Shown here one piece after another: positions 2,973 to 51,491 of a DNA stretch of 64,000 nucleotides (its first letter is position 1; each line of letters begins with the position of its first letter). Position numbers and translations under genes: made by a program. The stretch spans positions 279-64,278 of the forward strand of contig CAZJPR010000003.1 in assembly GCA_964548265.1 (NCBI GenBank). The letters run 5' to 3'. This DNA is from an uncultured Candidatus Saccharibacteria bacterium (GTDB lineage Bacteria; Patescibacteriota; Minisyncoccia; Phycocordibacterales; Phycocordibacteraceae). The notes beneath the pieces were generated by a model that did no database searches, had not been told where the DNA came from, and worked only from the letters and a program-made list of their open reading frames with translations.

Positions 2973-3530
2973 ATGGTCAAAATACCCAAAGTAACCAGAG
3001 GGAAGCTACTTAAGGCTCTGAGGTCTTTTGAACAGCGACGAGAAAGGTTCCCCAATATAATTCTTCTACAGGAAGCATCTACTTTTGAGATTGACGACCC
3101 ATCTCATCCAGACTCTGACGTAAGCGAGGTAAAAGTGACGGTGAGGATAGAGTATCCAAACTACCAGTACTTGGTAGGAGAAATTTACGGAAGTTCAGAG
3201 CTGCGCGATGGCCCTTTTGGATTCAAGGCACCTGTTGGAATTATTCGTGATGAAGTTCTGCGGATGGCCAACGATGGTTTGGTAACGTTAGAGATGCAAA
3301 GTCCGATTTTTACAAGAATAGATAAAAGGAATGGCGAAGAAGTTCGCTACGACCCGGGCAAATTTTTTAGCAGGGAAGAAATCAAAGACTACAAAACAAA
3401 AATAGTGCTTACTACAAAAGGAAGGAGTGTGCTCGAATACTGGAAGTCTAGCTTCCCAGAAAATGCTGTTGCGTGGCTCTCGCTCTTCGTTTCTCTCCTA
3501 GCATTACTTACCTCGATTTTTATTAAGTAG
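2973..3530 (+). CDS. Hypothetical tail-anchored membrane protein (soluble N-domain, single C-terminal TM helix)
   Basis: 185-aa ORF, AT-rich codon usage, C-terminal hydrophobic segment AVAWLSLFVSLLALLTSIFI; no recognisable family. Confidence 0.5.
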   Translation: MVKIPKVTRGKLLKALRSFEQRRERFPNIILLQEASTFEIDDPSHPDSDVSEVKVTVRIEYPNYQYLVGEIYGSSELRDGPFGFKAPVGIIRDEVLRMANDGLVTLEMQSPIFTRIDKRNGEEVRYDPGKFFSREEIKDYKTKIVLTTKGRSVLEYWKSSFPENAVAWLSLFVSLLALLTSIFIK

Positions 3531-3600
3531 CCCAAATCGAGATGCCTCATTAAGAGGCTTTAACCCTCGCGCCTAGTGCAAATAAACTTATAATAAAAGT

Positions 3601-4062
3601 ATGTCGTCTGCGGTTAATCGAGCAAAAAGGCGTTTAGTAGACAGCATCATTGCTGGGCGACGTAATGCAGAAAACGCAAAATACGGAGCATTCATTGTTC
3701 AGACAAATGAAGTTCAACTCAAACTCGCTTTGGCTGTTTTGCAGCGATCGGGCTTGCCTGATAAGGACTATGTAGAGAAATTGGAGAGATCAGAACTTGG
3801 CCCACTCCTGAATCTATATAAGGCCTGCGTAAAGAGAGTATCGCCAGCAGCCGTAACGCTAGTTCGAGATCTTGGAACATATAAGGGCTACAGGAATCGT
3901 CTTGCACACAAAATGTTCGGAGGAAAAAAGCTGACTCCTGTCGAGTGCGAAGAAGCGATAAAACTGGGAGAGTCTATATTACGGCGTCTGAATCAGTTAG
4001 TGGGTATATATAAAAATGCGAAGCCGAGAGTGCAAACCGAGTGGGAAAAGGTAAAGACCTAG
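3601..4062 (+). CDS. HEPN-like protein (Rx4H motif), candidate RNase/toxin component
   Basis: 153-aa helical ORF with YRNRLAHKMF (R-x4-H HEPN signature, as in DUF4145/HepT/Abi-type HEPN domains). Confidence 0.45.
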   Translation: MSSAVNRAKRRLVDSIIAGRRNAENAKYGAFIVQTNEVQLKLALAVLQRSGLPDKDYVEKLERSELGPLLNLYKACVKRVSPAAVTLVRDLGTYKGYRNRLAHKMFGGKKLTPVECEEAIKLGESILRRLNQLVGIYKNAKPRVQTEWEKVKT

Positions 4063-4147
4063 ACCGAGATGCCTCGACTTCAATCCTAAAACCCCGCCAA
4101 AGAACCCTTGAAGTGCCCCACTCTACCTAGTTCGAGACCGAGGTGGG

Positions 4148-4188
4148 GCACCCACTAGTGCTAGTTCAAGAGACTGAGATACCTTAAG
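4148..4188 (+). repeat. Right copy of att-like direct repeat
   Basis: GCACCCacTAGTGCTAgTtCaAGAGACTGAGaTaCCTTAAG; preceded by 9-bp stem hairpin GTGCCCCAC...GTGGGGCAC enclosing a T-loop-like TTCGAGA. Confidence 0.5.
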
Positions 4189-4222
4189 CATTTTATGCTG
4201 CCCCTTCGGGTATACTCAATAC

Positions 4223-4639
4223 ATGTTAAGCACGCTGCAGTACGGTTTACTATATCTTGTTTCAGTTCCGGTGTTCTTTATCATTGACCTGTTTTGGTTA
4301 GGGATAGTTGCTCCTGGTTTTTATAAATCGCAGATAGGGCACCTACTCAGCCCAACGGTTAACTGGCCAGTAGCAATCGTGTTTTACCTCCTATTTTTAG
4401 TTGGACTTATTATTTTTGCCGTTGCGCCGGCAATCGAGGCTCGTGCGTGGACGCACGCACTATTGTATGGAGCACTGTTTGGTTTTTTTACGTACCTTAC
4501 CTATGACCTAACCAACTGGGCAACAATGAAGGAGTGGCCCGCATTAGTATCAATCGTCGACATTGTGTGGGGGACGGTGCTTTCTGGAGCAGTAGCAACC
4601 ATAACGTACTTACTCGCTACTACCTTTATCATTAAATAG
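4223..4639 (+). CDS. Small integral membrane protein (DUF2177-like, 4 TM)
   Basis: 138 aa, four hydrophobic helices; 4-bp gap to next gene. Confidence 0.55.
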   Translation: MLSTLQYGLLYLVSVPVFFIIDLFWLGIVAPGFYKSQIGHLLSPTVNWPVAIVFYLLFLVGLIIFAVAPAIEARAWTHALLYGALFGFFTYLTYDLTNWATMKEWPALVSIVDIVWGTVLSGAVATITYLLATTFIIK

Positions 4640-4641
4640 TC

Positions 4642-5424
4642 ATGACACCATTGGCTCTTTCATTGGTAGCGCTTCTTGCCTACATGAGTGCGTTATTTGT
4701 CATTAGTCTTATCGTCAAAAACAATGGCGTTGCAGACATCGGGTACGGAATTGCATTTATGATTGTCATTGCGGCAACCTTCGCCCAGACAACAATCACC
4801 GAGCCATTCATTGTGGTCTTAGCGCTCTTACCATTTATATGGGGTGCTCGACTCGCAACTCGAATCTATCGTAAGAACAAAGGTAAGCCAGAAGATTTCC
4901 GGTACAAAGCCTGGCGTGACGCGTGGGGAAAGAGTTTCATCGTACGGAGTTTCTTTCAGGTGTATATGCTACAAGGTCTGGTTGTCTTCATTGTGTGTCT
5001 CCCCGTGACGCTTGCGCTCCTCTACCCATCCGTGCAACCGAACTATCCTCTTGCGTACCTTGGTCTTGCTGTGTGGGTGGTAGGGTTCTTCTTCGAAGTG
5101 GTTGCAGACCATCAGTTAGATCAGTTTATTAACGACCCACAAAACAAAGGATCCATACTGATGCGCGGGTTATGGAAGTACTCACGACACCCTAACTATT
5201 TCGGAGAAAGCACAATGTGGGTAGGTATTGCACTTATCTCCTTGGCGCTTTCCTCGGTACCGCTTGTCGCTCTCGTAAGTCCGCTACTAATTACCTTCCT
5301 TCTTTTGAAAGTGTCAGGGGTACCGCTGCTTGAGAAAAAGTGGGAAGGAAATCTTGCGTGGGAGGTATACAAAAAAAGAACATCGGTGTTTTTCCCACTC
5401 CCACCACGGCTCCCTCATGAATAA
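4642..5424 (+). CDS. DUF1295 / steroid-5-alpha-reductase-like membrane protein
   Basis: Multi-TM ORF with C-terminal RHPNYFGE motif typical of the DUF1295/ICMT/5-alpha-reductase superfamily. Confidence 0.65.
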   Translation: MTPLALSLVALLAYMSALFVISLIVKNNGVADIGYGIAFMIVIAATFAQTTITEPFIVVLALLPFIWGARLATRIYRKNKGKPEDFRYKAWRDAWGKSFIVRSFFQVYMLQGLVVFIVCLPVTLALLYPSVQPNYPLAYLGLAVWVVGFFFEVVADHQLDQFINDPQNKGSILMRGLWKYSRHPNYFGESTMWVGIALISLALSSVPLVALVSPLLITFLLLKVSGVPLLEKKWEGNLAWEVYKKRTSVFFPLPPRLPHE

Positions 5425-45750: not shown

Positions 45751-47097
45751 ATGAATAAGTCAGATCCTCGCGAACTTTGGGAACACGTGTTGTCGCAGGT
45801 CGAACTTTCAATTTCTCCAGCAAACTTTAATACTTGGTTCCGCGAGAGCTCAATTGTGAAGATTGAGGACGGGATTGTCTATATTGGTGTGCCTTCGCAG
45901 TTCTTCCGTGACTGGTACCTGAAGAAATTCCACCCCCTGCTACTTAAAATCATCCGCGGCGTCTCCTATGAGTTTAGAAATATCGAATACATGATTGTGA
46001 AGGACGCTTCTCGTAAGCCCCGGGAACAGAAAAGGAGGGAGCCCTCCATTGAAATGCCGCTTGATGAGTTCTACATCAACAAAAGTGACAACTTAAACCC
46101 GAAATACACCTTCGACACCTTCGTTATCGGTTCGTTCAACGAGCTTGCGTACTCTGCAGCGCAGGCAGTGCTCAATCGTCCGGGCATTACGTACAACCCA
46201 CTCTTTATTTACGGCGACACCGGGCGCGGAAAGACACACCTCATCCAGGCAATAGGGAACCACTACAAGAAACTGTACCCTACAAGGAAAGTGTTCTACC
46301 TAACGTCAGAGCGTTTTGCCGTTGATTACACCGATTCCATCCAGGCGGGGAACGCAAACCGCTTCAAAGAGAAGTATCGCCAGTACGACTTGCTCATCAT
46401 GGACGACGTGCAGTTCCTTTCAAAGAAAGAGAAGACCCAGGAGGAGCTTTTCCATCTCTTCAATGCGCTCCATGACAACAACCGGCAGATTATCTTCTCC
46501 TCAGACCGCTCTCCCCAGGCTATTCCTGATATTGCCGACCGCGTACGTGGCCGCCTCTCAAGTGGTATGACGGTGGATATCGGAGAACCTGACACAGAGA
46601 GCCGTATGGCCATTGTGCGCCGCAAGGCGGCCTCTCACGGCGTCACCCTCGGGGAAGATGTCATTGAGTACGTGGCCACCTCGGTCTCGGGCTCTATCCG
46701 TGAGCTTGAGGGGGTTATAAACAGTGTCGTCTGCCACACCCAGGTGAAGGGTGTTCCCCCAGACCTCGCAGAGGTTAGGCAGTCGCTGAGGGCCTTTTCA
46801 CGGCCTACTAAGACGGTTTCTGTGAAGCATGTGGTCTCTAAGGTGGCTGAGTTCTACGGTATTGATGAAGAGTCTATATATGAGAAGACTCGCCGCAGGG
46901 AGGTGGTGAGGCCGCGCCAGGTCATCATGTACCTACTGCGTGAGGACTTCTCAGTGTCCTACCCAACCATCGGCTCTAAGCTTGGTGGCCGCGACCACAC
47001 CACCGTCATCCACTCGTGTGAGAAGGTGAAGAGGGAGATTGTGGACGACACTGAACTTGCAAAAGAGATTCAGGCTATTCGTGGGCTGTTGGTATAG
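45751..47097 (+). CDS. dnaA: Chromosomal replication initiator protein DnaA
   Basis: AAA+ Walker [11 protein letters not shown]; C-terminal DnaA-box binding domain; ATG at 45751 (track ORF starts GTG 45742). Confidence 0.9.
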
Positions 47098-47307
47098 TTG
47101 TAGATAAGATATGGATAACTCTCAGATAGTCATGTGGGTAAGAGGAGGAAGGACACGTGTTCGTGTCGTTCGTCGAAAAAACTCCCGCGTCGTATCCCAG
47201 TGTGGTTCGACGTTCTCCACACCTTCTCAGTCTATCGATTGCAGTAACGCGTCGTACTTACTCACTGACTATAGTTTCCCCCGTATCAACAGGACTAATA
47301 AGAGGGT
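47098..47307. promoter_or_regulatory. Candidate oriC: dnaA-dnaN intergenic region with DnaA-box-like 9-mers
   Basis: TTATCCATA (revcomp of tatggataa), TTCTCCACA, TATCCCAGT; also TGTCCACA upstream of dnaA at about 45660; strong SD AAGAGGG before dnaN. Confidence 0.5.
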
Positions 47308-48408
47308 ATGGTAATTATTTTACAAAAAAAAGAATTCGCAGAAGTGGTGGGGATGGTATCTCGGTTTGCTGATCGACGTTCAGCAACGGTTCCTGCGCTT
47401 TCTGGAATCGCTATTGTTGCGGGGGATGATGGAATTAAAGTTCGTGCCACCAATCTTGAGACGGGAGTTGATATTCACATTGAAGGAACGATCAAGAACC
47501 AAGGTGCGATTGTTCTTCCGTCGACCATCCTTCGTGAGATTTCTTCCTCTTTCTCTGGAGAAGGTCAGGTGACCATTGAACACAGTGGGGATACTGCGGT
47601 CATAAGCTTTGGTTCCGCTAAGAGCACCATGAAGACACTTCCGTTTGAGGACTTCCCAACTCTTCCGCTTCCGGAGAATCCTAAGACAACGTTTACTATT
47701 GCTGGAGCAGCACTGAAGGCGCTTATTGGTACCGTCGCTCCTTGCGCATCCACCTCAACCATTCGTCCTGAGCTTGCATCTGTTCTTCTTTCTTCTGAAG
47801 GAGGAGTAGTGAAGGCGGTTGCAACTGATTCTTTCCGTCTTGCAGAGAAGAAGATGTCAGTGAAAGGGAAGATTGGGAACTTCTCCATACTTATTCCTGC
47901 AAAGAACGCGCTCGACCTTGCACAGACGATTCCTGATGATGAGGTTGAGGTCCGTGTGGGCGAGCACCAGTGTGCAGTCCTGTGGGCAAAGAGCACGATT
48001 ACAACGCGCCTCGTGTCGGCTGCGTATCCTGACTACACACAGATTATTCCTAAGTCCTTCTCGGTAGAGGCAACACTTCTCCGTAAGGACTTTGAGGGGG
48101 CACTTCGCCGCACCGCAGTCTTCTCTGACTCCTTCCAGAAGGTTCGTCTCAGCTTTGATGTCTCAGGCAAGAAACTGGCCCTTTCGGCACACAATGCGGA
48201 CGTAGGCGAGTCTGTAGAGCCTCTGACCGCGGCAATGTCTGGCGAGTCTCTTGAGCTTTCCTTCAACCACCGCTACCTACACACCCCACTACCTCTTATT
48301 ACCGCTGAGAGCATTACCCTGTCCGCGGGGGGCATAGGTAGGCCGCTAATCATCAAGGGGGTGGGGGATACGGGCTTCTTGTATTTGGTGATGCCGATGA
48401 ATCAGTAA
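47308..48408 (+). CDS. dnaN: DNA polymerase III beta sliding clamp
   Basis: Three-domain beta-clamp, 366 aa; position downstream of dnaA. Confidence 0.85.
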   Translation: MVIILQKKEFAEVVGMVSRFADRRSATVPALSGIAIVAGDDGIKVRATNLETGVDIHIEGTIKNQGAIVLPSTILREISSSFSGEGQVTIEHSGDTAVISFGSAKSTMKTLPFEDFPTLPLPENPKTTFTIAGAALKALIGTVAPCASTSTIRPELASVLLSSEGGVVKAVATDSFRLAEKKMSVKGKIGNFSILIPAKNALDLAQTIPDDEVEVRVGEHQCAVLWAKSTITTRLVSAAYPDYTQIIPKSFSVEATLLRKDFEGALRRTAVFSDSFQKVRLSFDVSGKKLALSAHNADVGESVEPLTAAMSGESLELSFNHRYLHTPLPLITAESITLSAGGIGRPLIIKGVGDTGFLYLVMPMNQ

Positions 48409-48415
48409 GAACCGC

Positions 48416-49429
48416 ATGAGCCTTTCCGAACAATTTAAGATTTTTTCGGAAAGGTACCCGAAAGAAAGCACGGAGCCGTTTCGCGCTACAGACACTTCGC
48501 AAATAATTACACGCACACTCCCTGGAATCTTACGAGAACGGCTGCAACTCGGGGAAAAGTACAGAATCTACGGGTCAACGGGTCGCGGTCGGTGGGCAGA
48601 AATTCCTTGGGTCGCTATTCTTGACAAGGAAATTACTAAAAGCACAGAGGATGGGTATTACGTCGTAATTCTTTTTGATAAAGAAATAAAGAATATCTAC
48701 CTGAGCCTTGCCGTCGGATGGCATCAGTTTGAGTGGGAGTATGGAATTAGGGACTCGCGAGCGAAAATTCAAGACGCTTGTAAATATTACGCTCACGTAC
48801 TCACTACAAAACTCGAAGGATTTAAGGAGGGAACAATTACACTTGGCGCAGAAAATATTCTCGGAAAAGGATACGAAATGGGGTGTGTGTTCTCTAAGGA
48901 ATATTCCATTTCTGATATTGAGGAGCCCGTCCTCTTAAATGACATCCAACACGTCCTGTCCTCCTATCAAGAGCTGAAAGATATTGTCGGCAACAGTATT
49001 CTTAATCTTGAAATTGATTCAGTGTCAAGTTCGGATGAGCGAGTGCGTACGTTCAAAAAGAGAATTGCAGAAAAGACGCTTACCGACGACAAGCTCGCCG
49101 CACTCGCACAACTGGTGCAAGAAGCAAATGCCGCCCCGCCGCCAATACGCACAGTCTTAAAGAAGGAAATTGTAAGAAATAAAACATTTGCTGCTGTTGT
49201 TAAGCAGCGCGAGGATTTTATATGTGAAGTCTGCAAAAGACTCCCTTTCATGCAAAGAAACGGAGCCCCGTATGCCGAGGCGGACCACATCATTCCACTT
49301 GGCGGAACGGAAAGAGGGAAAGACAGCCCAGACAATATGCGCTGTTTATGCGCCCAGTGCCACGCCATTCTTACGCACGGTTCCCCCAAAGAAATTGAGC
49401 AACTGTTAAATCGGACTACTGCCCCGTAA
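48416..49429 (+). CDS. MrcB_N (DUF3578)-HNH fusion: putative modification-dependent (Type IV) restriction endonuclease
   Basis: N-domain YRIYGSTGRGRWAEIPWVAILDK...YYVVILFDKEIKNIYLSLAVGW (DUF3578/MrcB-N signature); C-terminal HNH CEVCKRL...EADHIIPLGGTERGKDSPDNMRCLCAQCHAILTHG; low GC by eye. Confidence 0.6.
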   Translation: MSLSEQFKIFSERYPKESTEPFRATDTSQIITRTLPGILRERLQLGEKYRIYGSTGRGRWAEIPWVAILDKEITKSTEDGYYVVILFDKEIKNIYLSLAVGWHQFEWEYGIRDSRAKIQDACKYYAHVLTTKLEGFKEGTITLGAENILGKGYEMGCVFSKEYSISDIEEPVLLNDIQHVLSSYQELKDIVGNSILNLEIDSVSSSDERVRTFKKRIAEKTLTDDKLAALAQLVQEANAAPPPIRTVLKKEIVRNKTFAAVVKQREDFICEVCKRLPFMQRNGAPYAEADHIIPLGGTERGKDSPDNMRCLCAQCHAILTHGSPKEIEQLLNRTTAP

Positions 49430-51491
49430 ACCCACTCGCATTCAACGCCTGAATCGGATACTCCCAGTGCGCGTTCTGTGCATCGCGTCGTGAAGTTCCT
49501 CCACCCAACGGATTATCCTTATCTACCCAGTAGAGAATGTCGTGCACGCCGTCTTCTCCGGTGTATACACCACGCAGCGCAGGAGGGGCGTTCTCTGGAA
49601 TACCGCGCGGCTCACCAAAGAATTCTTTCGGACGCTTAGGAAGAGCGACATCCATGAACGCCCTCCACATAGGTGCGACCACGTAGCCTGCGGTCTCATG
49701 CACCATCGGGGTGTTGTCGTTGTTACCGGCCCAGACACCAACGGCAATTGAAGGTGTGTAGCCGACAGTCCATGTATCACGGTATTCGTTCGTGGTTCCG
49801 GTTTTCGCTGCAACCTCGTAGTCCGGGATGTTGAACGGGTTGTCCGGACGGTACGAAGGAATACGCGCCTGGTTGTTGGAAAGCATTGAGGAGATGTCAC
49901 GAGCGACCCCCGGATCAAGCACCGGTTCTGGATGCGCTTCGTATTCTTCAAGCACGGTGCCCTTCATGTCAGTGACCTTAAGGACGGCCACAGGAGGCAC
50001 GCGTACTCCATCGTTGGCGAAGACGCCGAAGGCGCTTGTAAGCTCGAGGAGCTTCACTTCTCCGGCTCCAAGGGCGAGCGAGAGGCCGTACTGATCGGCG
50101 TTGGTAAGGGTGCTGATACCCATCTGGCTTGCCAGCGCGATGACATTGTTGATTCCAGCCAGGTACATCGTCTTCACGGCCGGGATGTTAATGGACTGCG
50201 CGAGCGCTGTCGTGAACGTCATAGGGCCCCGGAACTTGTCATCGAAGTTTCCTGGAGCGTAGCAGGGGTACGCGGCATTGTAATTGTCTGCAGGACTGCA
50301 GGAGGTAGAGAACTGGGTAGGAAGGTCGAAGACAATGGTCTGCGGCGTGAAGCCCTTCAACAGCGCGGCTGCGTACACGAATGGTTTAAAGGAAGAGCCC
50401 GGCTGACGATTTGCGGTCACCGAGTTGTAGCTACCATCGATTTCCTCGTTGAAGTAATCGCGTGAGCCCACCATGGAAAGAATCTCCCCGGTCTTAGGGT
50501 CAATGGCCACAAGGGCGGCGTTGTTGGCATTGAATTTCTCGACGTTTGCCGCTCCGTATTCAGAGACGATGGTCTCCGCCTCGTGCTGAAGCTCAGCATC
50601 AATAGACGTGATGACCGTAAGTCCTTCCTCAACAACCTCTGGCCCATACTTCTCCTCGAGGTATTCGCGCACATAGAAGACAAAGTGTGGCGCAATAATA
50701 GAGGAGTTCGGCTGTGCGCTGAAGGTGACGACCTCGGCCTTTGCTGCTTCGTACTGCTCCTGATTAAGGAATCCAACCTTCTTCATGCGCTCGAGCACCA
50801 AATTCTTGCGTGCATCAAGCTCCTCACGATTGTTGCCGTACGGAGAATAGCGAGTGGGGGACTGCGGGAGAGCGGCCAAGTAGGCGGCCTCTCCAATGGT
50901 TACGTCCTTGGCAGACTTCCCAAAGAAGGCGCGCGAAGCGGCCTCAGCACCATATAAGGTGCCGCCGTACGGGGTGTTATTCAAATACAACTCGAGAATC
51001 TCATCCTTAGTGAAGCGCTGTTCGAGCTTCAGTGCGAGCACCCACTCGTGCACTTTGCGGATGATTGTTTTGTCTCCGGTCAAAAGCGTCATCTTCACCA
51101 CCTGCTGGGTGATGGTCGAGCCTCCTTGGCTAAAGGATCCGGTCGTAAGGTTTACCAACACTGCGCGCAGGAAAGAAATAGGGCGCACCCCCATGTGCTG
51201 GTAGAACGTGTCGTCTTCAATCGCAATAGATGCATTGCGGATGTTCTCGGAGATTGCTGAGAGCGGCACGATGTTGCGACGCACGTCAGTGTTGAGGTCG
51301 TAGAGAATGGTGTCGCCGGTGCGGTCGTAAATCTTGGTCGACTGCGTCACTTTGCGGTAGGAAAGGGAATCGAGGTCAGGCACCGGAGTAAGGGCCATGA
51401 GGATGAGGCCTGCCCCTGCAATACAGAAAAGGATGCCGGCGAAGACGAAAAGCCTGCGAGTGATGGGATGGGCGCGCTTCTTACGAGGCAT
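49416..51491 (-). CDS. mrcA: Class A penicillin-binding protein (transglycosylase + transpeptidase)
   Basis: N-terminal TM, GT51 motifs (EDDTFYQHMG), transpeptidase motifs SSFK, KTG. Confidence 0.85.
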   Translation of the reverse strand: MPRKKRAHPITRRLFVFAGILFCIAGAGLILMALTPVPDLDSLSYRKVTQSTKIYDRTGDTILYDLNTDVRRNIVPLSAISENIRNASIAIEDDTFYQHMGVRPISFLRAVLVNLTTGSFSQGGSTITQQVVKMTLLTGDKTIIRKVHEWVLALKLEQRFTKDEILELYLNNTPYGGTLYGAEAASRAFFGKSAKDVTIGEAAYLAALPQSPTRYSPYGNNREELDARKNLVLERMKKVGFLNQEQYEAAKAEVVTFSAQPNSSIIAPHFVFYVREYLEEKYGPEVVEEGLTVITSIDAELQHEAETIVSEYGAANVEKFNANNAALVAIDPKTGEILSMVGSRDYFNEEIDGSYNSVTANRQPGSSFKPFVYAAALLKGFTPQTIVFDLPTQFSTSCSPADNYNAAYPCYAPGNFDDKFRGPMTFTTALAQSINIPAVKTMYLAGINNVIALASQMGISTLTNADQYGLSLALGAGEVKLLELTSAFGVFANDGVRVPPVAVLKVTDMKGTVLEEYEAHPEPVLDPGVARDISSMLSNNQARIPSYRPDNPFNIPDYEVAAKTGTTNEYRDTWTVGYTPSIAVGVWAGNNDNTPMVHETAGYVVAPMWRAFMDVALPKRPKEFFGEPRGIPENAPPALRGVYTGEDGVHDILYWVDKDNPLGGGTSRRDAQNAHWEYPIQALNASGFTGQ

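What the first reader, a model, noticed from the sequence alone, without database searches (positions are those of the whole stretch)
48416..49429. MrcB_N(DUF3578)-HNH single-polypeptide restriction-like nuclease inserted directly after dnaN at the origin
The N-terminal half has the DUF3578/MrcB-N signature (KYRIYGSTGRGRWAEIPWVAILDK ... YYVVILFDKEIKNIYLSLAVGW). That domain is a modified-DNA reader in McrB-like enzymes. The C-terminal ~80 aa are a textbook HNH nuclease (C-x2-C ... ADHIIPL ... N ... C-x2-C-H). The gene is markedly AT-richer than dnaN/PBP1A, starts 7 nt after the dnaN stop without its own SD, and its 3' end overlaps the convergent PBP1A gene. It replaces the usual recF/gyrB neighbours of dnaN. 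As read, this is a one-gene modification-dependent (Type IV-like) restriction system, horizontally acquired into the most conserved locus of the chromosome. No methyltransferase is adjacent, consistent with a modification-dependent enzyme.
Basis: partly seen in the sequence, partly recalled or inferred. Interest (0 to 1): 0.65.

Follow-up and report, generated by a model that had tools for sequence, protein, structure and literature searches.

The report
McrB-reader/HNH restriction gene after dnaN
This is an intact one-gene nuclease, predicted to cut foreign DNA that carries modified cytosines, sitting in a frequently swapped gene slot next to the replication origin of a tiny uncultured bacterium; it is an ordinary member of a widespread but biochemically untested family.

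Summary

The Type IV-like, single-chain reading is the best explanation. Acquisition is supported. The gene is AT-richer than its flanks and is absent from this locus in all 80 related species. Two same-genus relatives (flanks ~86-88% identical at DNA level) carry unrelated genes in exactly the same stop-codon-to-stop-codon slot.

- Nothing "replaces recF/gyrB". In this Patescibacteria lineage dnaN is always followed by convergent PBP1A.
- The dnaN-PBP1A gap is a variable cargo slot, not a frozen locus.
- The missing Shine-Dalgarno motif is normal here (about 36 of 46 genes lack one).

The architecture is common: about 95 of the best 150 50%-identity clusters are full length. It is already annotated as DUF3578 protein or "McrA" and noted in the literature, but I found no experimental characterisation. 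Verdict: new member of a known kind, modest interest.

The parts
48416..49429 (+). ADAM(MrcB_N/DUF3578)-HNH gene, 337 aa including the stop codon
   Evidence: ORF list. Pfam MrcB_N 1.1e-42 and HNH 2.6e-7. AF2 model with mean pLDDT 91.5. 87 full-length homologues at 34-59% identity.
48449..48979 (+). N-terminal reader domain (residues 12-188), McrB-N fold. Proposed base-flipping pocket residues: S54, W65, Y82, L86, and probably Y153.
48980..49222 (+). Helical linker (residues 189-269). Its last part is shared with the pre-HNH helices of EcoKMcrA.
   Evidence: Secondary structure of the model. The alignment to 6ghc starts at query residue ~230-238.
49223..49372 (+). HNH (beta-beta-alpha-Me) nuclease core, residues 270-319. 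Zinc ligands C270, C273, C312, C315; catalytic D290-H291, N307, H316.
48409..48415 (+). 7-nt spacer between the dnaN stop and the ATG. No SD-like motif; there is no room for a promoter, and none was found in dnaN or the spacer. Co-transcription and translational coupling with dnaN are inferred.
   Evidence: Sequence. Promoter scan found no + strand site in 46900-50000. SD survey.
48409..49415 (.). The cassette: sequence with no homology to the same-genus relatives L005 and L006, bounded exactly by the dnaN stop and the PBP1A stop.
   Evidence: Three-way DNA alignment A2. blastn of the insert hits only the four same-strain contigs L001-L004.
49416..49429 (.). 14-nt overlap with the 3' end of PBP1A. 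The last codons (T-A-P-stop) of the nuclease gene lie in the conserved flank.
   Evidence: The unrelated 152-aa ORF of L006 ends with the same 'TAP*' in the same flank.
47308..48408 (+). dnaN (left flank, conserved core gene)
   Evidence: Pfam DNA_pol3_beta x3. 80 orthologous loci.
49416..51491 (-). Class A penicillin-binding protein (PBP1A; right flank, conserved core gene, convergent)
   Evidence: Pfam Transgly and Transpeptidase. Present convergently after dnaN in nearly all 80 loci.
47099..47221 (.). Cluster of four one-mismatch DnaA boxes in the dnaA-dnaN spacer: probable oriC, about 1.2 kb upstream of the nuclease gene
   Evidence: Pattern search. Four of the window's 14 matches fall within 123 bp.

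Best explanation
The gene encodes a stand-alone, NTP-independent, modification-dependent (Type IV) restriction endonuclease.

Proposed mechanism:
- The N-terminal ADAM/McrB-N-type domain scans DNA from the minor groove and flips a base into an aromatic pocket (W65, Y82, L86, probably Y153). It binds stably only when the base is a modified cytosine (5mC, 5hmC or N4mC class).
- The C-terminal zinc-stabilised HNH domain, probably acting as a dimer as in TagI and EcoKMcrA, then cuts nearby.
- The host's own DNA is presumed to lack that modification, so no methyltransferase partner is needed.

The gene is a horizontally acquired single-gene cassette in the dnaN-PBP1A cargo slot next to oriC. It is probably transcribed from the dnaA-dnaN operon.

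Shown: domain identity, fold, conserved residues, cassette boundaries, and absence from this locus in relatives. Inferred: substrate modification, dimerisation, cleavage, defence role, and co-transcription.
For: - Pfam MrcB_N 1.1e-42 and HNH 2.6e-7.
- AF2 model with pLDDT 91.5.
- The HNH region is most similar in sequence to three proven Type IV enzymes: 6ghc 1.5e-13, 6ghs 7.3e-10, 5zmm 8.2e-7. It also matches the PADLOC mREase_IV model at 9.4e-11.
- McrB-N residues S38 and W49 (phosphate clamp) and Y64 and L68 (methyl sensing, per PMC3424535) align to S54, W65, Y82, L86. These are conserved in 75-76 of 76 homologues.
- HNH residues H291, N307, H316 and the four zinc cysteines are conserved in 73-76 of 76.
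- No NTPase domain and no McrC neighbour.
- Homologues are stand-alone genes with changing neighbours, and in about four of the nine distinct contexts inspected these are defence or DNA-methylase genes. Examples: a Priestia plasmid defence island with Type I R-M and an ABC-three-component system; Thoeris-like TIR and Macro genes; an Eco57I-type N6 methyltransferase.
- ADAM is also found fused to a different nuclease (PF13020) in relatives. This is the modular logic of modification-dependent enzymes.
- Acquisition: GC 0.46 against 0.54, absence from 80 related loci, and cassette replacement in L005 and L006.
Against: - No biochemical data exist for any ADAM-HNH protein that I could find.
- PADLOC and NCBIfam have no full-length model. 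Only the HNH part matches mREase_IV.
- Identity to EcoKMcrB-N is only about 14-20%. The finger residue that intercalates in McrB (Y41) is R57 here and is hypervariable in the family, so sequence context and even the preferred modification may differ.
- The Y117-to-Y153 equivalence rests on motif resemblance only. hhalign stopped at residue 101.
- The host methylome and the rest of the genome are unknown; only 64 kb was checked for methyltransferases, and by regex.
Confidence: 0.7

Rival explanations
1. It is a modification-dependent nuclease, but the reader domain is tuned to something other than methyl- or hydroxymethyl-cytosine. Candidates are a hypermodified phage base, 6mA, or a damaged base.
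For: Identity to EcoKMcrB-N is low, at 14-20%. The McrB hydrogen-bonding residues 82-85 are not conserved among homologues according to PMC3424535. The finger residue 57 is hypervariable. McrB N-terminal domains of other families read 6mA (the PMC11037411 text seen).
Against: The methyl-sensing pair Y64/L68 and W49 are invariant here. According to PMC3424535 the McrB-N pocket size excludes purines. Several homologues sit beside N6-adenine methyltransferases, which would be self-toxic for a 6mA reader.
Confidence: 0.15
2. It is a selfish or toxic nuclease that does not depend on modification. It could be a free-standing HNH homing endonuclease that inserted itself after dnaN, or an abortive-infection or toxin effector that uses the ADAM domain only as a general DNA clamp.
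For: It is a single-gene insertion with sharp boundaries. Many PHROG HNH families match the C-terminus. One homologue lies near a PemK toxin gene.
Against: - The same slot holds many unrelated non-nuclease genes in relatives, so the slot rather than the gene explains the insertion.
- There are no flanking repeats or target duplications.
- No relatives were found in 2.9 million viral contigs. Phage-genome hits are only partial.
- The HNH is nearest to Type IV enzymes, not to homing enzymes.
- No NUMOD- or AP2-type DNA-binding modules were found.
Confidence: 0.07
3. It serves nutrient acquisition rather than defence. These small symbiotic bacteria are thought to depend on imported nucleotides, so the enzyme could selectively fragment methylated DNA taken up from host or neighbour cells while sparing self DNA.
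For: The close homologues with long contigs lie in genomic contexts resembling small Patescibacteria-like genomes, though taxonomy was not determined. One homologue sits next to a secreted-type SNase/Excalibur nuclease. Nothing in the data excludes this reading.
Against: No signal peptide or uptake-machinery linkage was examined or seen. The same architecture occurs in free-living Bacillota on plasmid defence islands. This is pure inference.
Confidence: 0.04
4. It has a housekeeping role in replication or repair, linked functionally to dnaN and oriC.
For: It is immediately adjacent to dnaN, probably co-transcribed with it, and about 1.2 kb from the DnaA-box cluster.
Against: It is absent from this locus in all 80 related species. 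None of the nine homologue contexts inspected is next to dnaN. Same-genus relatives carry a small-molecule-type methyltransferase or a membrane protein in its place.
Confidence: 0.02

Closest known systems
EcoKMcrB N-terminal domain (McrB-N, DUF3578/PF12102, 'ADAM'; PDB 3SSC/3SSD/3SSE)
   Different: In E. coli the domain is fused to an AAA+ GTPase and needs McrC, with GTP-driven translocation and cleavage between distant sites. Here it is fused directly to an HNH nuclease, with no NTPase and no partner. The intercalating Tyr41 is Arg57. Identity is only about 14-20%.
EcoKMcrA (PDB 6GHC), the 5mC/5hmC-dependent HNH enzyme
   Different: The reader domain is unrelated. McrA uses the NEco domain, which reads modified CpG without base flipping (PMC7145662 abstract). 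Only McrA residues ~178-276 (the C-terminal HNH part) align.
TagI / ScoA3IV (SRA-HNH), VcaM4I (EVE-HNH), ScoMcrA (SBD-SRA-HNH)
   Same: Modular design of a base-flipping modification reader plus an HNH domain. They are NTP-independent and have no methyltransferase partner. [quoted passage not shown] HNH similarity: 6ghs 7.3e-10 and 5zmm 8.2e-7.
ADAM-HNH / 'DUF3578 domain-containing protein' genes of Bacillota plasmids (for example Priestia aryabhattai WP_263294459.1)
   Same: Same full-length architecture, with 95% coverage at 27.5% identity. It lies in a defence island. The fusion class 'ADAM/DUF3578'-HNH is mentioned in bioRxiv 2025.04.06.647449.
   Different: These are distant in sequence. 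The window's subfamily (34-59% identity) was found only in metagenomic and MAG data. None has been characterised experimentally, as far as the searchable literature shows.

Membership tests
Pfam MrcB_N / DUF3578 / ADAM domain | Profile match above the curated cut-off over the whole domain | tested here: met
   146.2 bits against a cut-off of 25; model positions 4-182 of 183.
Pfam MrcB_N / DUF3578 / ADAM domain | McrB-N fold | tested here: met
Pfam MrcB_N / DUF3578 / ADAM domain | Conserved phosphate-clamp (S38, W49) and methyl-sensing (Y64, L68) residues | tested here: met
   They align to S54, W65, Y82 and L86 and are conserved in 75-76 of 76 homologues.
Pfam MrcB_N / DUF3578 / ADAM domain | Aromatic residue stacking on the flipped base (Y117) | tested here: inconclusive
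   Invariant Y153 in a 'GKGYE' motif resembles McrB 'KKYGQ', but hhalign did not extend past residue 101.
Pfam MrcB_N / DUF3578 / ADAM domain | Preferential binding of modified cytosine in DNA | not testable with these tools
   Needs EMSA, fluorescence or crystallography.
HNH (His-Me finger) nuclease, McrA/TagI clade | Profile match plus catalytic His, Asn, metal-binding His and a Cys4 zinc site | tested here: met
   PF01844 at 31.1 bits against a cut-off of 21.4. H291, N307, H316, C270, C273, C312 and C315 are present and conserved in 73-76 of 76 homologues. Nearest solved relatives are 6ghc, 6ghs and 5zmm.
HNH (His-Me finger) nuclease, McrA/TagI clade | Metal-dependent DNA cleavage | not testable with these tools
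   Needs an enzyme assay.
[quoted passage not shown] | Modification-reader domain and nuclease domain in one polypeptide, with no NTPase | tested here: met
   There are only two domains, and no P-loop or AAA hits.
[quoted passage not shown] | No cognate methyltransferase; host DNA lacks the target modification | tested here: inconclusive
   The neighbours are dnaN and PBP1A. No methyltransferase motif was found by regex in 64 kb. The rest of the genome and its methylome were not seen.
[quoted passage not shown] | Cleavage requires modified DNA; restricts modified phage or plasmid | not testable with these tools
   An experiment is required.
[quoted passage not shown] | Match to a curated defence-system model | tested here: inconclusive
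   PADLOC mREase_IV PDLC03656 at 9.4e-11 covers residues 245-322 only.
McrBC system | McrB AAA+ GTPase domain with an NxxD motif | tested here: not met
   The protein ends at residue 337 with an HNH domain. The NCBIfam McrB equivalog scores 12.8 bits against a cut-off of 637.
McrBC system | Adjacent McrC (DUF2357 plus PD-(D/E)xK) partner | tested here: not met
   The flanking genes are dnaN and PBP1A.
EcoKMcrA orthologue (the name JGI gives to homologues) | NEco N-terminal reader domain | tested here: not met
   Only McrA residues ~178-276 (the HNH part) align. The N-terminal domain here is ADAM.
HNH homing endonuclease | Phage, intron or intein setting; sequence-specific DNA-binding modules; spread into a cognate empty site | tested here: not met
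   There are no viral relatives, no such domains and no flanking repeats. The slot holds unrelated cargo in relatives.

The most novel reading that the evidence does not exclude
In this Patescibacteria (Paceibacteria) lineage the dnaN-PBP1A gap, beside oriC, may act as a dedicated single-gene cargo slot. Cassettes would be swapped stop-codon-to-stop-codon by homologous recombination in the flanking core genes. They would be expressed by read-through from the dnaA-dnaN operon. In that case the ADAM-HNH gene is a defence or DNA-scavenging nuclease that borrows origin-proximal gene dosage and replication-gene transcription. In an episymbiont, a modified-DNA-specific nuclease might also serve to digest methylated host DNA for nucleotides.
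Probability: 0.12. Interest if true: 0.6.

Novelty: new member of a known kind. Interest (0 to 1): 0.3.

Why it matters
If the prediction holds, ADAM-HNH enzymes would add another reader fold, McrB-N, to the toolbox of small NTP-independent modification-dependent nucleases such as MspJI, TagI and VcaM4I. Such enzymes are used for epigenome mapping. The hypervariable finger residue (position 57) would offer a natural series of sequence-context specificities.

For Patescibacteria biology, the gene shows that even ~1-Mb symbiont genomes exchange single defence genes at a fixed slot next to the origin. It also predicts that this organism lacks cytosine methylation. None of this overturns current understanding.

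Tried and rejected
- Flanking direct or inverted repeats, att sites or target duplications around 48409-49415: only short chance-level matches. I therefore dropped a site-specific mobile element.
- Viral origin: no relatives in IMG/VR. There are only partial single-domain hits in phage genomes.
- NCBIfam: no family-level hit. PADLOC matches only the HNH part.
- Literature searches for a characterised DUF3578/ADAM-HNH enzyme: only passing mentions. PcaRCII (PMC8989522) has a different N-terminal domain.
- Source names for the exact protein and four homologues: none on record.
- hhalign to map the stacking Tyr117: the alignment stopped at residue 101.
- Terminator and promoter scan: nothing above shuffled expectation.
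- Remnant of the conserved 83-aa post-dnaN ORF in the window: none.
- L002's mosaic (divergent dnaN next to an identical cassette) as proof of recombination: not accepted as proof. The identical junction stretch is only 35 nt, and I judge that too short to rule out a strain-chimeric assembly.

Full report
**1. The observation**

The ORF list shows a 337-aa ATG-initiated ORF at 48416..49429(+). It lies between dnaN (47308..48408, +) and a convergent class A PBP gene (49416..51491, -). Pfam confirms DnaA, DnaN and PBP1A for the neighbours.

The sequence shows the dnaN stop TAA, the 7-nt spacer 'gaaccgc', and then the ATG. The nuclease ORF's stop TAA (49427-49429) lies 14 nt inside the 3' end of PBP1A.

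GC drops to 0.438 over 48500-49249 against about 0.54-0.57 in the flanks. The gene as a whole is 0.46 against a window mean of 0.54.

**2. Domain identity**

- Pfam gives MrcB_N (PF12102, formerly DUF3578) at E=1.1e-42. The match covers essentially the whole model (positions 4-182 of 183) on residues 12-188.
- Pfam gives HNH (PF01844) at E=2.6e-7 on residues 270-319. Both scores are above the curated cut-offs.
- An AlphaFold2 model built on 76 homologues is confident, with mean pLDDT 91.5.
- Foldseek's best 15 hits are all EcoKMcrB-N structures, followed by EcoKMcrA, ScoMcrA and TagI.
- A sequence profile of the family hits EcoKMcrA (1.5e-13), TagI (7.3e-10), ScoMcrA (8.2e-7) and EcoKMcrB-N (1.3e-3).
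- hhalign against the MG1655 McrB N-terminus gives probability 95.8% and E=6.8e-9.

**3. Functional residues**

The crystal-structure paper on McrB-N (PMC3424535) assigns these roles:
- Ser38 and Trp49 clamp the phosphates of the flipped nucleotide.
- Trp49, Leu68 and Tyr117 form one wall of the pocket, and Tyr64 the other.
- Tyr64 and Leu68 sense the 5-methyl group and are conserved among homologues.
- The intercalating Tyr41 is not conserved and may set sequence context.

In the alignments these positions map to S54, W65, Y82, L86 and R57. Across 76 full-length homologues the counts are: W65 and Y82 76/76, L86 75/76, S54 75/76. Position 57 is hypervariable (T, Q, N, S, R and others).

Invariant Y153, in a 'GKGYE' motif, is a plausible Tyr117 equivalent. 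This is inference only, because hhalign stopped at residue 101.

In the HNH part, C270, H291, D303, C312, C315 and H316 are 76/76. C273 is 75/76. D290 and N307 are 73/76.

**4. What it is not**

- There is no AAA+/GTPase domain. The NCBIfam McrB equivalog scores 12.8 bits against a cut-off of 637.
- There is no McrC neighbour, so this is not an McrBC system.
- It is not an EcoKMcrA orthologue, despite the name JGI gives to homologues. Only the HNH part of McrA aligns, and McrA's reader domain (NEco) is a different fold that does not flip bases (PMC7145662 abstract).
- PADLOC's Type IV models match only residues 245-322.

**5. The family**

The word-indexed search found 87 full-length proteins with the same two Pfam domains at 34-59% identity. 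It also found relatives in which MrcB_N is fused to PF13020 instead of HNH.

The exhaustive search of 1.84 billion 50%-identity representatives found 4428 hits at E<=1e-3 and 84 at E<=1e-30. About 95 of the best 150 align over essentially the full length.

Three Priestia or Paenibacillus plasmids carry full-length homologues annotated 'DUF3578 domain-containing protein'.

[quoted passage not shown] A 2025 preprint lists 'ADAM/DUF3578' among the reader domains that recruit HNH domains in modification-dependent enzymes.

I found no paper that characterises such an enzyme. The architecture is therefore known and common, but biochemically untested.

**6. Genomic context of homologues**

I inspected nine distinct contexts. 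None is next to dnaN, and the neighbours always differ. Several include defence or DNA-methylase genes, and others include mobile-element genes:
- integrase, serine recombinase and phage Rep_O;
- Prim-Pol and SNase;
- an N6_N4 methyltransferase and MazG-like genes;
- a PemK toxin;
- Thoeris-like ThsB_TIR and ThsA_Macro plus SocA_Panacea;
- an Eco57I/N6 methyltransferase, convergent and overlapping;
- a Priestia plasmid island with an ABC-three-component system, a restriction endonuclease, Type I R-M and DUF2075.

This is what one expects of a stand-alone defence gene. Co-occurrence with adenine methylases is compatible with a cytosine-modification reader.

**7. The locus in relatives**

A scan of GTDB species representatives with DnaN returned 80 loci at 53-96% identity. 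All are Patescibacteria/Paceibacterota (Parcubacteria, Kaiserbacteria-type) MAGs.

tblastn with the window's proteins shows one conserved order wherever the locus is long enough: yidC<-, dnaA->, dnaN->, <-PBP1A, <-ruvC, <-yebC, <-ruvB. In L022 the downstream block is inverted. The ADAM-HNH protein is absent from every one of these loci at E<=1e-5.

So recF/gyrB never follow dnaN in this lineage, and nothing of that kind was displaced.

The dnaN-PBP1A gap varies from 8 to 4712 bp:
- 32 loci hold a conserved 83-84-aa ORF with no Pfam match.
- Others hold unrelated genes: Methyltransf_11, SDR, aldose epimerase, DKNYY, Maf-like, DUF4145, peptidase S51, an IS1595 transposase, VTT, AstE/AspA-like and a histidine phosphatase.

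The slot is thus a general cargo site, not a defence island.

**8. Cassette boundaries**

The two nearest relatives are L005 and L006. Their DnaN is 96% and 95% identical in protein sequence, and their flanking DNA is 86-88% identical, so they are the same genus but different species.

They align with the window up to the dnaN stop codon, and again from the PBP1A stop codon (CTA at 49416-49418). Between these points the three genomes have three unrelated sequences:
- the ADAM-HNH gene in the window;
- a 232-aa Methyltransf_11 protein in L005;
- a 152-aa membrane protein in L006.

The last three sense codons and the stop of the nuclease gene (T-A-P-stop) lie in the conserved flank. L006's unrelated ORF ends with the same 'TAP*'.

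No flanking repeats exist. The simplest mechanism is replacement by homologous recombination in the flanking core genes. This is an inference.

Four independent metagenome contigs carry a 100% identical copy. One of them, L002, has a dnaN that is 7% divergent, joined to a cassette and PBP1A that are identical over 2475 nt. This is either a recombination mosaic or a chimeric assembly.

**9. Expression**

No promoter-like site lies on the + strand in dnaN, the spacer or the nuclease gene (scan of 46900-50000), and the 7-nt gap leaves no room for one.

The lack of an SD motif is uninformative. Only about 10 of 46 genes in the window have one, and many have a -10-like box directly before the ATG.

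Co-transcription with dnaN and termination-reinitiation coupling are inferred. Four near-consensus DnaA boxes cluster at 47099-47221 in the dnaA-dnaN spacer, so the gene is about 1.2 kb from the probable oriC.

**10. Mechanism proposed**

- Shown: an intact McrB-N-type reader with a conserved pocket, an intact McrA-type HNH domain, no NTPase, no partner, and cassette-like acquisition.
- Inferred from the named families: base flipping of a modified cytosine (5mC, 5hmC or 4mC class) into the W65/Y82/L86 pocket; HNH dimerisation as in TagI (PMC6212794 abstract); double-strand cleavage near the site; and self-tolerance because the host lacks that modification.
- I put 0.7 on 'modification-dependent restriction nuclease'. 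Within that, roughly two-thirds goes to a modified-cytosine specificity.

**11. Verdict**

Its claims about the locus are wrong for this lineage.

The gene is a new member of a known, widespread, already annotated but uncharacterised architecture. The most interesting by-product is the stop-to-stop cargo slot between dnaN and PBP1A beside oriC.

Limits:
- Only +/-6 kb of each relative was examined, so the gene could sit elsewhere in those genomes.
- Only 64 kb of the host was checked for methyltransferases.

Noticed in passing
window 48409-49415, compared with L005:7102-7855, L006:1237-1690 and 75 other loci: The dnaN-PBP1A gap is a lineage-wide variable cargo slot of 8-4712 bp. It holds unrelated single genes or small gene sets, including an IS1595 transposase in L017. 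In close relatives the boundaries fall exactly at the two stop codons.
   Followed up: yes
L002:1-3416 (Logan DRR783843 contig), equivalent to window 47433-50848: All 69 mismatches to the window fall inside dnaN, mostly at third codon positions (92.9% identity). There are then no mismatches over the last 35 nt of dnaN, the nuclease gene and 1.4 kb of PBP1A. This is either a recombination mosaic between strains or a strain-chimeric assembly.
   Followed up: partly
window 47099-47221: Four one-mismatch DnaA boxes (TTATCTACA, TTATCCATA, TTACCCACA, TTCTCCACA) cluster in the 210-bp dnaA-dnaN spacer. This is the probable oriC.
   Followed up: partly
whole window (46 gene starts): Only about 10 of 46 genes have an SD-like motif. 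Many have a TAnnnT, -10-like box immediately upstream of the start codon, which suggests widespread leaderless or short-leader mRNAs in this organism.
   Followed up: partly
L029:7122-7373 and 31 other loci (directly after dnaN): A conserved 83-84-aa ORF follows dnaN in 32 of 78 relatives. It has no Pfam match and is absent from the window and its closest relatives. It may be a small replication-associated protein.
   Followed up: partly
window 2973-5424: A second low-GC patch (0.43-0.47) holds four + strand ORFs: two without Pfam hits, one DUF2177 membrane protein and one DUF1295/steroid-reductase-like membrane protein. It may be another acquired segment.
   Followed up: partly
L091:8104-8433 (Priestia plasmid) and L090:11297-11644: In Priestia a MazG-like nucleotide pyrophosphohydrolase gene overlaps the 3' end of an ADAM-HNH homologue, and another lies 2.3 kb from the homologue P0014. 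This may be a recurrent partnership, but it is not present in the window.
   Followed up: no
L020:7103-8661: A relative with 80% DnaN identity carries a two-gene cassette in the same slot: a 182-aa membrane-anchored protein and a 337-aa protein. Neither has a Pfam match, and neither is related to the ADAM-HNH protein despite the identical length of the second.
   Followed up: partly
residue 57 of the protein (window 48584-48586): The position equivalent to the DNA-intercalating Tyr41 of EcoKMcrB is hypervariable across 76 homologues (T, Q, N, S, R and others), while the pocket residues are invariant. It is a candidate determinant of sequence-context specificity.
   Followed up: partly
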